DNA from: the human T2T-CHM13v2.0 reference genome, Homo sapiens
DNA: 64,000 nt
Assembly: GCF_009914755.1 (NCBI RefSeq)
Contig: NC_060936.1
Direction: 5' to 3' (one strand)
Positions 8,231 through 59,962 of the stretch are shown here, one piece after another (position 1 is the stretch's first letter; every line of letters begins with the position of its first letter). Both the position numbers and the translations under genes were made by a program. The notes below the pieces were generated by a model. The model was not told the origin of the DNA and searched no databases. It worked only from the letters and a program-made list of their open reading frames with translations.

Positions 8231-8236
8231 CATTTG
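8231..8236 (-). CDS. CLIP1: CLIP1 6-nt microexon CAAATG (adds QM: ESQ-QM-IDFLN)
   Basis: actaac branch-like motif 8312-8317, ~70-nt pyrimidine-rich AG-free stretch with tgctgc, ttccaatcag|CAAATG|gttcgt; phase 0-0; (UG)n downstream. Confidence 0.7.
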
Positions 8237-50051: not shown

Positions 50052-53636
<3,585 letters not shown>

Positions 53637-53854
53637 TAAGCTTTTTCATAAAGTTTCTCCTTAGATTAAAAAATAAATCCTTTTTATTCACAGTTTGCAA
53701 TTTTTTTCAAATGGGGAGAGACTACTACAGTGAGATACTTAGTAAAGAATCCCCCTTTCAGACTGTAACGAACAGCTTGAGACATATAAGCAACTGACTT
53801 AATGAGGTGGATTTCCATAAGCAGAAATGAAGAAAGATGACCTACACCACTTGA

Positions 53855-53874
53855 GTTAGTGCACAGTGTTAGTA
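53855..53874 (-). promoter_or_regulatory. Paired ACUAAC (QKI/STAR-type) motifs 40-60 nt downstream of the giant exon donor
   Basis: Minus strand reads tactaacactgtgcactaac. Confidence 0.55.
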
Positions 53875-53913
53875 AGCAGTCTGGGTGCTCAATACTTGAC
53901 CCTCTCACTTTAC

Positions 53914-56181
53914 CGTAAATGACTGAAGAGTCTCGAGCTCTCTAATTTTAAGAGTAAGCTTGTTCTTGTCTTTTCTCAAAGTACGGTTTTCATTTTGAGA
54001 TTCTAGGAGATTGGCTGAAATATGGCTGTTGGTTTTGGCCAACTGGCTGATCTCTTTCTGAAGGATGAAGTAGCTTTCTGCCAGGGTTTCCTTCTCCTTC
54101 AGGAGCTCATCCTTTTCCAGCATCATTTCGCTCTTCTCAGCCAGGAGGTTCTGGTTGTCTTGCATCACCTGGGCTTTTTCGGCCAGGGTCACCTCATGGT
54201 TCCGCTGAAGGTCATCCAGAATCTTGGTGAGGCAGCTGTGCAGTTCCTGCAGCTCTGCCTTGGATTTGGACAAGGCAGCAAAATCACTTTTCAGAGTCTT
54301 TATATGGGCAGCAAGTTGAGCTGCTTCTGCAGTCAACAGTTCCTTCTCCTCGATTATCTCTGCCAGTTCTTGCTCTGATTTGCTCTTCTCTTGAAGTAGC
54401 ACAAACTTCTCGGACTGCAGCTCCTCGATACACACTCTTAACTCCTCCACCTCCTGCTCCAGGAGCACCATCCTCCCGTGAAGTTGATTGTTTTCGTACA
54501 AGGATGACTCGCTCTCCTTTGCTCTGGCTTCCTGTTCCAGGATTAAGGACTGCTGCATTTCCTGGATCTCCTTGCTTAATTTGTGACACTCTTCTTGCAG
54601 GTTCAAGCCATCTCTCAGCAACATGTTCTTCTCGGAACAACACGTGTTAAGTTGAGCATCCAAACTCTCCTTTGCTTGCAATATGTGAGTGTGTTCTTTT
54701 TCCAGATTCTTTTTGGTATTTTGAGCCTCTTTCAGCATCAAAGAGAGGTCGCACTTGCTGGCCACTAGTTCTTGGTTTTCCTTTTTTCTCTCTTGAAGCT
54801 CCTTCTTCAGAGCATCAATATTACTGAGGAGTTTCATATTCTCTTGCACAACTAAACTTCTGTTTGCAGACTCTTGATCACATTGCCTTTTGAGGTCTCC
54901 TATGGCTTTGATGGAATTCTCTCTCTCTGCAAGTAAAGCTCCATTTTGCGTTTCCAGTGAGGATTTTTCTTTCAAGAGACTATCCTGCTGCTTTTTAAGT
55001 TCAGTCATTTTCTGAGAAGCCATCTCCTTCTCGGAAGTCAGGTAAGTGATCTTCTCATTCAGGCTCATCTCAGTATGGGCAGCCTCTTCTAAGCATTTGT
55101 GGAGTTTTTCAGTGATTATTCTATTTTCACTTAAAAGTTCCTCTTTCTCAGCCAAGAGCCTTCTCTCGGAGGCAGCCAAGGTTTCTTTCTCATGCAGAAG
55201 CTGGATGCACTCGGAGTCCGTGACCGCCCGCCTGGCCTTAATTTCCTCCAAGAGCTTCGTGAGGCTTGTGTTTGCGGCCTCGAGTTGCACGGTCTCCAGC
55301 TCTGCCTTCCTCAGGGCCTTGCTGGCATCATCCAGCTGTGCGCGGAGCCCACTGGCTTCTGAGCGGAGCAGCTGTTTGACCTGGAGAGCGGCCTGGAGGC
55401 TGGCATTCAGCTTTTCCTGATCTTGAAGCAGCATGTCCGTCTCTAACTGCAGATTTCTGTTGTTCTGAAGAACATTATCTCGTTCTACCTTTAAGGCTAT
55501 GCACGTGTTATCGAGATTGGACAATTTCTCTAAAGCTGACTTTTTCTCAGCTGTGAGATCTTCAGTCTCCTGTACCAAAGCTTTCTGATCTTTGACTAGC
55601 TCCTCATAAGACCTTTGAAGCTTCTGAATGATGTCATCCTTATCTTTGGCCAAGATGAAGTTTTCGGTAATAAGTTTCTTGATCTGGTCCTCCAGGTGAT
55701 CTTTTTCTTCCTGGTCCTTCTCAGTCTTAGCAATCAAAGTATCTTTGCTGAGCTGGAGCTCTTCAATGAGTGCCTGCATGCTCACCTTGGAAGCTTGCAA
55801 AGAGTCATTTTCCACATTTATCTTCAAGAGTTCTTCCTGTACAACATTGATTTCTTTAAGCAATTTCTCTCTCTCAACAGCCAAAGCTTCTTTATTGAGA
55901 TGTTCCTGCTCATAATACTTTTCGGCATCTTGCTTTTCTTCTAAGAATTTCTCCTTTTCTAAATTAAGAGTTTCATTCACTGACCACAGTTTCTGCTGGT
56001 CTCCCTGAAGTAAAGCTATTTTGGCCTCCAATTCTACAAGCTTGGATAAAAGTGAACCGTTTTCTAACTTTAAATCATTTCCCTCCTGAGAAAGAAGCTG
56101 CTTCTCTGATTTCAGACCCCTCAGCTCTTCTGACATTAGTTCAATTTCTTTTTTGGCTGATGTTAACAAATAAGTTAGCGA
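53914..56181 (-). CDS. CLIP1: CLIP1 giant alternative cassette exon, 2268 nt / 756 aa of coiled coil (SLTYLLTSAKKEIELMSEE...ELETLQSFT)
   Basis: Open frame across 2.27 kb (ORF 53905..56169); long pyrimidine tract ending tttctgtag|TCG; donor ACG|gtaaag; phase 0-0 matches flanking exons; E/K/L/Q-rich, no proline. Confidence 0.9.
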
Positions 56182-56817
56182 CTACAGAAACAAAAGATGG
56201 AAAGAATGGAAACAAAAATGAAATCAAGCAGACAAATGCAAGCCCAAATAACTTAATGTAACCTAAATGATAAAAACTTTACAATTTCTACAATAAACTT
56301 TACAGAAACTATCTGAATAACAAGGGAAAGAAACTAAACAGAGCCCATAAAAAGGTAAGTCAAAAGTGTAGTTTTGCAAAGTGCTTCTGTATCTGTTAGC
56401 TTATTTTATCTTTGAAACAACTTGTGAAATTATTCCCAGTAGCTACCTAGAAGATAAAAATAGTAGCTTGATTTTAATATCAGGGCATAAGATTCTTTCC
56501 TGCCATTCCAATTATCAAATTACTTTGAAAGCAGAAAGGATTCATAGAACAATTTTTAAAAATACAATTAAAAGAAGTACAAAAACTCAGTATATTTTAA
56601 TGAAAAAAGGAAGGGGCATAACAAGGGAAAATAAACTACTGCCTTCCAAACTCACCACAGGACCTTACTTAAGGGTAGCTGAGGGGCTGAGAGTGATTTA
56701 GTCCCAATATCACATATAACTTAAAAACTACAGCCTAATTTCTAGGCTTTGCTGACTAAAAGGAATAGTTTTTTTTTTTTATTTACTGAATTATAAGATA
56801 ATTTGACCACAGTGTCT

Positions 56818-57812
<995 letters not shown>

Positions 57813-59746: not shown

Positions 59747-59962
59747 TTTGGCTTTCTCGGCTTGCTTTCTCAGCTCCTCCAGCTCCTGCAGCAAGCCACT
59801 GTTCTCCTCCCGTGCGCCCTTCAGCTTGTCCTCTGTGTCCAGCAGCGTCTTCTGGAGGTTCTGTAGGATTTCTTCATGCTTGGTTTTTGTCTCAGAAGTG
59901 GCTCTCTCATACCTGGCTTTCAGCTCCTGACACTGGTTGTGGCTTGTTTCCATTTTCTTTTC
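59747..59962 (-). CDS. CLIP1: CLIP1 constitutive exon, 216 nt ([10 protein letters not shown]...RKQAEKAK)
   Basis: ctgcag|GAA acceptor, AAA|gtacgt donor, 72 codons, phase 0-0; 98-nt upstream intron. Confidence 0.96.

What the first reader, a model, noticed from the sequence alone, without database searches (positions are those of the whole stretch)
53914..56181. Giant 2268-nt cassette exon that could nearly double the CLIP-170 rod: 756 aa, no proline, exactly 108 heptads
Seen: a repeat-free 2.27-kb open frame in an Alu-saturated intron. It has a strong acceptor (long pyrimidine tract, tgtag|TCG) and a donor (ACG|gtaaag), and is phase 0-0 between ...AEKAK and AAQTAEDA..., which join directly in the canonical protein. 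The peptide is E/K/L/Q-rich with zero prolines, and 756 = 108 x 7. Known: CLIP-170 is a parallel coiled-coil dimer with CAP-Gly heads and a zinc-knuckle/EEY-F tail that binds p150Glued and LIS1 and folds back for autoinhibition. Inference: inclusion could preserve heptad register and add about 110 nm (0.15 nm per residue), making an extra-long CLIP-170 with altered reach and autoinhibition, like the giant exons of ankyrins or MAP4. I recall long CLIP1 isoform models containing this sequence, so it may be annotated, but I know of no functional study.
Basis: partly seen in the sequence, partly recalled or inferred. Interest (0 to 1): 0.9.

Follow-up and report, generated by a model that had tools for sequence, protein, structure and literature searches.

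The report
Known giant spermatid exon of CLIP1
This is a real, deeply conserved 2.27-kb coding exon of the microtubule-tip protein CLIP-170 that is already published as its spermatid-specific "giant exon"; what looks new is that it is built from four ancient 172-residue coiled-coil repeats of strongly conserved length.

Summary
It is not new. Ilik et al. (Nature 2024, PMC10901741) list a "CLIP1 giant exon, 2268" that SAFB proteins repress in somatic cells and that is included in spermatids, in mouse too. Five testis peptides published under the label "CCDC150P1" are tryptic peptides of this frame. CLIP1 models from mammals, a snake, birds, an axolotl, frogs and two fishes carry the exon. The CCDC150 pseudogene label is unsupported: BLASTP against human CCDC150 gives E 0.18 and hhalign probability is 1.5%. 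The "exactly 108 heptads" reading fails. The exon is four tandem 172-residue units (24 heptads plus a 4-residue stutter) and a 68-residue tail (0 of 1000 shuffles reach the signal). Frogs carry a fifth unit. Length is 756 aa in 9 of 13 other mammals, and human and eagle align without gaps at 46% identity. The function of the long isoform, probably a long structural tether at the spermatid manchette, is inferred.

The parts
53914..56181 (-). Giant CLIP1 cassette exon: 2268 nt, 756 codons, phase 0-0
   Evidence: Open frame and splice sites. Same length as the published 'CLIP1 giant exon 2268'. Orthologs sit in CLIP1 models of tetrapods and fishes. Five testis peptides map to it.
56182..56241 (-). 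Acceptor: long pyrimidine-rich tract ending in ctgtag. The tag is also the in-frame stop that bounds the ORF upstream.
53905..53913 (-). Donor gtaaag followed by an in-frame TGA. Mammalian ORF translations all read ...FT-VK here, and conservation collapses just beyond.
55666..56181 (-). Repeat unit R1 (exon aa 1-172)
   Evidence: 172-aa periodicity. In-register BLASTP to R2 (30-143 with 30-143, E 1.7e-4); R1-R3 E 9e-8 with starts offset by 14 (16-149 with 30-149).
55150..55665 (-). Repeat unit R2 (aa 173-344)
   Evidence: R2-R4 aligns 1-171 with 1-171, E 2.8e-7. The frogs' extra unit is most like this one.
54634..55149 (-). Repeat unit R3 (aa 345-516)
54118..54633 (-). Repeat unit R4 (aa 517-688)
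53914..54117 (-). 68-residue tail (aa 689-756). It opens with the unit's EK-x-x-LL start but is otherwise not repeat-like. It is the best conserved part among mammals (84% identity).
59747..59962 (-). Upstream constitutive CLIP1 exon ending ...AEKAK
   Evidence: hub table
51032..51148 (-). Downstream constitutive CLIP1 exon starting AAQTAEDA...; 355 residues remain to the C-terminus.
   Evidence: hub table
53974..55647 (-). Span annotated as pseudogene CCDC150P1 (exon aa 179-736). This is a mislabel of part of the coding exon.
   Evidence: No homology to CCDC150. Two of the five 'CCDC150P1' peptides lie outside this span.

Best explanation
Window 53914-56181 (-) is the known alternatively spliced 'giant exon' of CLIP1 (CLIP-170).

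Shown here: it is an intact coding exon under long-term purifying selection, present at the same place in CLIP1 across tetrapods and in two ray-finned fishes. It encodes an acidic, proline-free heptad coiled coil inserted 355 residues before the C-terminus. It consists of four tandem 172-residue units (24 heptads plus a stutter-type 4-residue discontinuity each) and a 68-residue tail.

Taken from the literature: in somatic cells SAFB proteins bind the long A-rich exon and keep it out of the mRNA. In spermatids, where SAFB is low, it is included. The peptide is made in human testis.

Inferred: the insert lengthens the parallel dimeric rod by about 112 nm (four steps of about 25.5 nm) without touching the CAP-Gly heads or the zinc-knuckle tail. 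That would give a very long CLIP-170 acting as a structural tether at the plus ends of manchette microtubules and the perinuclear ring, with altered head-to-tail fold-back. The annotation 'CCDC150P1 pseudogene' is a mislabel of this exon.
For: ORF, phase and splice sites.

Published identity: the main text of PMC10901741 describes a spermiogenesis-expressed, SAFB-suppressed giant exon of CLIP1/Clip1, and its Supplementary Table 1 lists 'CLIP1 giant exon 2268' (passages).

Translation: the five testis peptides in the supplement of PMC8062694 equal predicted tryptic peptides 89-97, 133-146, 258-269, 407-420 and 614-628 of the exon.

Conservation:
- 37 near-length relatives, 34 of them at 71-82% identity, all with open frames.
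- 84 longer relatives, of which 77 are named CLIP1 / CAP-Gly linker protein 1 by a source. They come from mammals, a snake, birds, an axolotl, frogs, Polypterus and Lampris.
- Insert length is 756 aa in 9 of 13 non-human mammals. Aquila is 756 aa and aligns to human with no gap at 46% identity.
- About 9 of 22 inferred indel events are 7 or 14 aa.
- Heptad a/d positions are more conserved than b/c/f (0.71 against 0.54).
- Human-mouse identity is 76% in the exon and 79% in the 127 aa of constitutive rod just upstream.

Coiled coil: hydrophobic power at period 3.5 is 2.74 against a shuffle maximum of 1.13. Three stutters are conserved between human and mouse.

Repeats: BLOSUM autocorrelation is 0.507 at offset 172 and 0.677 at offset 344. 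The null maximum over offsets 8-400 is 0.098, so 0 of 1000 shuffles reach it in each of two nulls. Unit pairs align in register. The frogs' extra 151-158 aa is another unit.

Not CCDC150.

Clip170 knockout mice have an irregular manchette and abnormal sperm heads, and CLIP170 localises to the perinuclear ring (passages).
Against: Inclusion in human CLIP1 mRNA was not seen here. It rests on the hub's RefSeq table and on a statement and a supplementary figure of PMC10901741 that I could not view.

No ortholog DNA was available, so there is no dN/dS. Selection is inferred from open frames, indel pattern and position-specific conservation.

Dimer formation and a straight geometry are untested. An antiparallel fold-back of the four units is not excluded.

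The knockout phenotype is not isoform-specific.

The repeat is not detectable by BLAST self-comparison in the two fish sequences or in one unnamed 938-aa relative. In Polypterus it is only the third-ranked offset.

The heptad model is a simple two-class Viterbi of my own. An earlier window method suggested more register changes.
Confidence: 0.8

Rival explanations
1. The stretch is what the annotation says: a pseudogene derived from CCDC150 (retrocopy or duplicate) sitting in a CLIP1 intron, transcribed in testis and occasionally exonised.
For: The hub table lists CCDC150P1 at 53974-55647 (-). A single intronless 2.3-kb block inside a gene of 50-230-nt exons looks retrocopy-like. One 41-column patch resembles a CCDC150 exon (32% identity).
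Against: BLASTP of the exon against human CCDC150 isoform X2 gives a best E of 0.18. Profile-profile probability is 1.5%. tblastn against 200 kb of the CCDC150 locus gives a best E of 1.1 (locus identity confirmed). The six-frame search of the human genome finds only the exon itself at E <= 0.001, and below that only two E > 3 matches, on chr1 and chr8, with none at the CCDC150 locus (a strict filter applied). There are no disabling mutations. The block lies at the same CLIP1 position from fishes to mammals.
Confidence: 0.02
2. The exon is real, but its inclusion in testis is permissive splicing noise in a low-SAFB cell type. The long protein would have no function of its own, or the conserved function would lie in the RNA.
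For: Testis is known for promiscuous transcription and splicing. Splice sites derepressed on SAFB loss are most upregulated in testis (passage). No isoform-specific phenotype is published.
Against: A 756-codon frame is kept open in every relative seen. Human and eagle show no indel. Indels are biased to 7 or 14 residues, and a/d positions are the most conserved. These are protein-level constraints. Peptides are detected in testis.
Confidence: 0.05
3. The insert does not lengthen the rod by 112 nm. Its four units fold back on each other (for example 2+2 antiparallel), forming a side arm or thick segment so that head-tail spacing changes little.
For: There is an even number of like units. The strongest self-similarity is at two units (offset 344: 0.677 against 0.507 at offset 172). 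Glycines are conserved near the start of the exon. The model places register breaks near both junctions.
Against: There is no proline and only 9 Gly in 756 residues. Heptad continuity runs for 170-200 residues between stutters. Nothing in the sequence marks a turn between R2 and R3.
Confidence: 0.12

Closest known systems
CLIP1/Clip1 giant cassette exon of Ilik et al., Nature 2024 (PMC10901741)
   Same: Same gene and same length (2268 nt). A-rich (35.2% A). Conserved in mouse. This is the same object.
   Different: In the passages and tables I saw, the paper treats it as an RNA target of SAFB. It gives no protein architecture, no depth of conservation beyond mouse, and no comment on the CCDC150P1 label.
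Giant tissue-specific cassette exons of cytoskeletal linkers (ANK3, ANK2, MAP2, MAP4, NIN, MPRIP)
   Same: Single very long, in-frame, adenosine-biased exons that are bound and suppressed by SAFB and included in one cell type (passage).
   Different: This one is included in spermatids rather than neurons or muscle. It encodes a regular repeated coiled coil. The other CLIP1 coding exons in the window are just as A-rich (37.4%), so its length rather than its composition sets it apart within the gene.
Long-period repeats with regular discontinuities in coiled-coil rods (myosin II rod: 28- and 196-residue repeats with skip residues; recalled, not tested)
   Same: A heptad coiled coil carrying a superimposed long repeat and one register discontinuity per repeat.
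   Different: The period is 172 and the discontinuity is stutter-type. No 28-residue or other long charge periodicity rises above shuffles. No sequence relation: the best PDB hit is a myosin-7 fusion at E 0.0099.
CCDC150
   Same: A generic E/K/L/Q-rich coiled coil. It is the source of the annotated name.
   Different: No significant similarity.

Membership tests
Published CLIP1 giant exon | 2268-nt exon within CLIP1 | tested here: met
   2268 nt; Supplementary Table 1 of PMC10901741 lists 2268
Published CLIP1 giant exon | In-frame cassette between constitutive exons | tested here: met
   Phase 0-0 with AG/GT sites
Published CLIP1 giant exon | Adenosine-biased (over 33% A) | tested here: met
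   35.2% A, 59.8% purine
Published CLIP1 giant exon | SAFB binding and spermatid-restricted inclusion | not testable with these tools
   Literature only; the figures are not held
Pseudogene of CCDC150 | Significant sequence similarity to the parent gene | tested here: not met
   BLASTP E 0.18; hhalign probability 1.5%; tblastn on the locus E 1.1
Pseudogene of CCDC150 | Disabling mutations or neutral decay | tested here: not met
   No stop in 756 codons, where shuffles give about 46; open in all relatives
Two-stranded alpha-helical coiled coil | Heptad (3.5-residue) periodicity of core hydrophobic residues | tested here: met
   Power 2.74 against a shuffle maximum of 1.13. Power 39.6 at period 3.51 against a shuffle 95th percentile of 8.5. 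Viterbi log-likelihood -440 against -555 +/- 8 for shuffles.
Two-stranded alpha-helical coiled coil | No helix breakers over long stretches | tested here: met
   0 Pro in human, and 0 Pro in 18 of the 24 aligned species
Two-stranded alpha-helical coiled coil | Parallel in-register dimer | not testable with these tools
   Three +3 register jumps near residues 185, 363-377 and 548-570, at the same places in mouse. The repeat period of 172 equals 4 mod 7.
Tandem-repeat protein module | Self-similarity at a fixed offset beyond heptad periodicity, with units aligning in register | tested here: met
   0 of 1000 shuffles reach it in each of two nulls. Identity is 20.5% at offset 172 against 7.5-14.4% at six nearby offsets (165, 168, 171, 173, 175, 179). 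5 of 6 eagle unit pairs align in exact register and the sixth (A3-A4) ends 3 residues off, with E from 1.8e-9 to 0.011.

The most novel reading that the evidence does not exclude
The giant exon encodes a length-constrained spacer or 'ruler' module: four 172-residue (about 25.5 nm) coiled-coil repeats, each with one stutter. Its total length has been held at exactly 756 residues in lineages separated since the amniote ancestor, while more than half of the residues changed. On this reading, physical length or the four-fold periodic surface is the selected property, rather than specific sequence. The module would convert CLIP-170 from a dynamic plus-end tracker into a roughly 250-nm static tether that sets the spacing between manchette microtubule ends and the perinuclear ring or nucleus in spermatids. 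Copy number can change, as shown by the fifth unit in frogs, which could be compared with sperm-head geometry across taxa.
Probability: 0.3. Interest if true: 0.6.

Novelty: already known. Interest (0 to 1): 0.4.

Why it matters
The exon is annotated and published, so the finding as posed adds nothing new. Three points from this check may be useful.

1. The 'CCDC150P1' gene model is really CLIP1 coding sequence. Expression and peptide calls for it, such as testis-specific expression in GTEx and 'non-coding' peptides in proteogenomics, are therefore probably read-outs of giant-exon inclusion rather than pseudogene translation.

2. The exon has a 4 x 172-residue repeat architecture with regular stutters. 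I found no description of it in the held library.

3. Its length is conserved exactly between human and eagle, a snake model differs only by six residues added at the donor end, and the indels that do occur are biased to whole heptads. This points to selection on rod geometry.

Recent manchette studies localise 'CLIP170' without considering that the spermatid form may be about 85 kDa larger. An exon-specific deletion in mouse would directly test what the long rod is for.

Tried and rejected
- Pfam on the exon peptide: only APG6_N at E 0.019, below its cut-off.
- ESM Atlas via the stored homologue P0002: only generic coiled-coil clusters (GCC2, CEP135, GOLGA2, HMMR, CEP250) at 0.91-0.93 with low shared-feature counts. 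I treated these as composition matches.
- Exhaustive profile search of 1.84 billion representatives: 63 hits. Seventeen have E <= 1e-10; two of them are named CLIP1 and the rest are unnamed, mostly short fragments that I take to be CLIP1 exon pieces. I scanned 21 of the hits against Pfam. The weak tail below 1e-9 includes coiled-coil stretches of C-type lectins, methyltransferases, glycosyltransferases and a butyrophilin-like protein, so no paralogous family emerged.
- Three of the unexplained weak hits mapped to unrelated coiled-coil exons on chr6, chr7, chr17 and chr19, not to CCDC150.
- PDB by sequence profile: one hit at E 0.0099.
- Internal duplication from the rest of the CLIP1 rod: rejected. 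The 172-residue periodicity is confined to the insert, starting at most about 20 residues before it, and secondary HSPs to the rest of the rod are weak.
- DNA-level Tandem Repeats Finder found only an 8-nt micro-array. Its longest period is 500, so the 516-nt unit was out of reach. Nucleotide autocorrelation does peak at 516 and 1032.
- No long charge periodicity.
- BLAST self-comparison of Polypterus, Lampris and one unnamed 938-aa relative (P0125) found no repeats.
- A first, window-based register scan suggested many register shifts. I replaced it with the Viterbi segmentation.
- Complex prediction and structure prediction were not available, so nothing was folded.
- Akhmanova et al. 2005 is not held. 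What I say of it comes from citing papers.
- Literature searches for a 172-residue repeat (20 papers, none on CLIP1 by title), for CCDC150 together with CLIP1 and for a Clip1 target in the Tra2-beta paper gave nothing relevant.
Full report
**1. Observation**

On the minus strand, window 53914-56181 is 2268 nt and translates into 756 residues without a stop.
- The stop-to-stop frame is 53905-56181. The other six ORFs of 100 aa or more overlapping 53000-57000 are 109-139 aa.
- Base shuffles of the exon give 45.7 stops per frame on average.
- The acceptor is a long pyrimidine tract ending ctgtag|TCG. The donor is ACG|gtaaag.
- The upstream exon (59747-59962) ends ...AEKAK and the downstream exon (51032-51148) begins AAQTAEDA..., both in phase 0.
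- The peptide has no proline and 9 glycines, and is rich in L, E, K and Q.
- Codon-position composition is typical of coding sequence: GC is 0.54, 0.26 and 0.54 at positions 1-3.

**2. It is already described**

A search for 'CLIP1' plus 'giant exon' found Ilik et al., Nature 2024 (PMC10901741; passages read).
- CLIP1 is listed among giant coding exons bound by SAFB and spliced in more efficiently after SAFB depletion. The giant version is said to be expressed during spermiogenesis.
- The mouse Clip1 'spermatid-specific giant exon' is spliced in after SAFB knock-down in 3T3 cells. It is suppressed by SAFB1 over-expression in N2A cells.
- Supplementary Table 1 lists 'CLIP1 giant exon 2268', the same length as here.
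- The exon is 35.2% A, which fits the paper's criterion of over 33% A. The 11 other CLIP1 coding exons in the window are 37.4% A, so within this gene it is the length that is unusual.

A proteogenomics paper (PMC8062694) reports five unique peptides for 'pseudogene CCDC150P1' in testis, with testis-specific expression in GTEx.
- Its supplement gives the five peptides and their GRCh38 positions.
- All five equal fully tryptic peptides of the exon frame, at residues 89-97, 133-146, 258-269, 407-420 and 614-628.
- For the two peptides I compared, the published GRCh38 positions differ from the window-derived T2T positions by the same 4,200 bases.
- Two of the five lie outside the pseudogene span given by the hub (aa 179-736).

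**3. Conservation**

The near-length protein search returned 37 relatives. Thirty-four are 71-82% identical and three are 39-41% identical, and all are open frames. In the alignment of 20 of these, similarity ends within a few residues of the donor site.

The search among longer proteins returned 84 relatives.
[quoted passage not shown] They come from many mammals, a snake, about 20 birds, axolotl, frogs, Polypterus and Lampris.
- The other seven carry other or no names: one marmoset 'hypothetical protein', one 'unnamed protein product' from a finch, two frog 'lava lamp' or 'uncharacterized' fusion models plus one more of that kind, and one metagenome record.

I located the insert between the conserved flanks in 37 chosen models.
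- Anchoring failed for four: two truncated models (Saguinus, Callorhinus), Ranitomeya and Polypterus.
- The insert is 756 aa in 9 of 13 non-human mammals. The others are rabbit 752, pika 750, and a bat and a shrew at 742.
- Aquila is 756. Candoia and Haliaeetus are 762. Chicken is 760 and pheasant 759. Passerines are 738, 739 or 744, and tits 729. Axolotl is 773 and two frogs are 912 and 920.
- Most non-mammal models end the exon 6 codons further downstream than mammals. Bird models exist with either donor.

For the multiple alignment I kept 24 species, one model each. I dropped duplicate isoforms, extra passerines, Haliaeetus, the four mis-anchored models and Lampris.
- Human and eagle align without a single gap at 46% identity.
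- Of about 22 indel events that I infer from that alignment, 9 are 7 or 14 residues.
- 18 of the 24 sequences have no proline.

Identity to human in the exon compared with the neighbouring constitutive sequence:

| Species | Exon | 127 aa upstream rod | 355 C-terminal residues |
|---|---|---|---|
| Mouse | 76% | 79% | 96% |
| Chicken | 43% | 51% | 73% |
| Axolotl | 40% | 37% | 67% |

The exon therefore evolves about as fast as the adjacent constitutive rod. Heptad a/d positions are more conserved than b/c/f positions (0.71 against 0.54). Among mammals the first and last 42 residues are the best conserved, at 89% and 87% against 73% overall. I had no ortholog DNA, so no dN/dS was computed.

**4. 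Not a CCDC150 pseudogene**
- The six-frame search of the human genome with the exon peptide found only the exon itself, even at E <= 10. The tool applied a strict first filter to those searches.
- I bracketed the CCDC150 locus with Pfam hits to HECW2 and PGAP1; the gene order is recalled. I then fetched chr2:197.02-197.22 Mb.
- One coiled-coil exon in that stretch retrieved proteins that sources name CCDC150, from human, apes and many other mammals.
- tblastn of the exon against the 200 kb gave a best E of 1.1.
- BLASTP against human CCDC150 isoform X2 gave a best E of 0.18.
- Profile-profile comparison with nine CCDC150 orthologs gave probability 1.5%.

Together with the intact frame and its fixed place in CLIP1 since before tetrapods, this makes the pseudogene label a mislabel.

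**5. What the peptide is**

No Pfam family matches. The exhaustive profile search finds CLIP1 orthologs and fragments, then only generic coiled-coil noise.

Hydrophobic residues show strong 3.5-residue periodicity. A seven-state Viterbi segmentation gives three register jumps, each equivalent to a stutter.
- They lie near residues 185, 363-377 and 548-570.
- They are stable over three penalty settings.
- They fall at the same places in the mouse protein.
- The same model puts a register break 4-5 residues before the upstream junction in both isoforms, and another 12 residues after the downstream junction in the long isoform.

'108 uninterrupted heptads' and 'register preserved' are therefore not supported.

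**6. The repeat**

Profile autocorrelation over ten spread species singled out offsets 172, 344 and 516.
- In the human sequence alone the mean BLOSUM62 score is 0.507 at offset 172 and 0.677 at offset 344.
- Shuffling heptad blocks, or shuffling residues within heptad positions, gives a maximum over offsets 8-400 of at most 0.098. So 0 of 1000 shuffles reach the signal in each null.
- Identity is 20.5% at offset 172 against 7.5-14.4% at six nearby offsets.
- The same period is among the two best offsets in mouse, eagle and snake, in the top five in Hyla and third in Polypterus. It is absent from the top five in chicken, axolotl, Pseudophryne and Lampris. The first three of those carry indels that break an ungapped measure.
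- Units 1-172, 173-344, 345-516 and 517-688 are 19-23% identical pairwise without gaps.
- BLASTP aligns 3 of 6 human unit pairs in exact register, with R1-R3 (E 9e-8) nearly so. In the eagle, 5 of 6 pairs align in exact register and the sixth ends 3 residues off, with E down to 1.8e-9.
- The last 68 residues share only the opening EK-x-x-LL motif.
- The periodicity is confined to the insert.
- 172 = 24 x 7 + 4, which explains the one stutter per unit and the average period of 3.51.
- The frogs' extra 151-158 residues are a further unit, best matched to the following unit (E 3.7e-13 within Hyla).

So 756 = 4 x 172 + 68, and its divisibility by 7 is a coincidence. I found no description of this repeat in the held library.

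**7. Mechanism**

Shown: a conserved coding exon with coiled-coil character, the repeat architecture, and peptides in testis.

From the literature:
- SAFB represses the exon in somatic cells and it is included in spermatids.
- CLIP170 lies at the perinuclear ring and manchette, and the knockout gives irregular manchettes and abnormal sperm heads.

Inferred:
- At about 0.1485 nm per residue (textbook value) the insert adds about 112 nm, in four 25.5-nm steps, 355 residues before the C-terminus.
- The heads and tail are unchanged, so partner binding is probably kept while reach and fold-back autoinhibition change.
- The long form would act as a static tether in the manchette.

Dimer formation and straightness could not be tested. 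None of the manchette papers I looked at discusses the long isoform.

**8. Verdict**

The exon is real but already known, so novelty as posed is low. The heptad-number argument is wrong. The new items are the 4 x 172-residue architecture, the exact length conservation across amniotes, and the correction of the pseudogene label.

Noticed in passing
window 8231-8236 (-): A 6-nt micro-exon of other CLIP1 transcripts (hub table) has intact AG and GT sites...ccaatcag|CAAATG|gttcgt....
   Followed up: partly
window 53896-53913 (-) and orthologs P0036-P0038, P0074-P0111: Most non-mammal CLIP1 models end the giant exon 18 nt further downstream, adding six residues of the form V-x-Q-K-x-E. Bird models exist with either donor: 756 against 762, and 738 against 744. 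In human the frame hits TGA two codons after the donor, so only the upstream donor can serve.
   Followed up: partly
P0113, P0114, P0119 (frog models): Frog proteins of about 3100 aa, named 'lava lamp' or 'uncharacterized', combine CLIP1 domains with a Sec1 domain (PF00995). They look like read-through fusions of CLIP1 with its downstream neighbour; VPS33A is that neighbour in human according to the hub table.
   Followed up: no
window 53914-54039 and 56056-56181 (-): The first and last 42 codons of the exon are the most conserved among mammals (89% and 87% against 73% overall). This may reflect splicing-regulatory information overlapping the coding sequence, or structural demands at the junctions.
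   Followed up: no
P0071-P0073 (Peromyscus), P0039 (Saguinus), P0042 (Callorhinus): Some gene models contain only part of the giant exon, or lack the zinc-knuckle end. They look like truncated or mis-joined predictions rather than evidence for internal splice sites.
   Followed up: no
G000:C2:197142825-197210156 (+), loci L014-L021: Five coiled-coil-like open exon candidates lie on the plus strand. The one at 197205556-197205747 is a CCDC150 exon. This fixes CCDC150 on T2T chr2 at about 197.1-197.2 Mb.
   Followed up: partly
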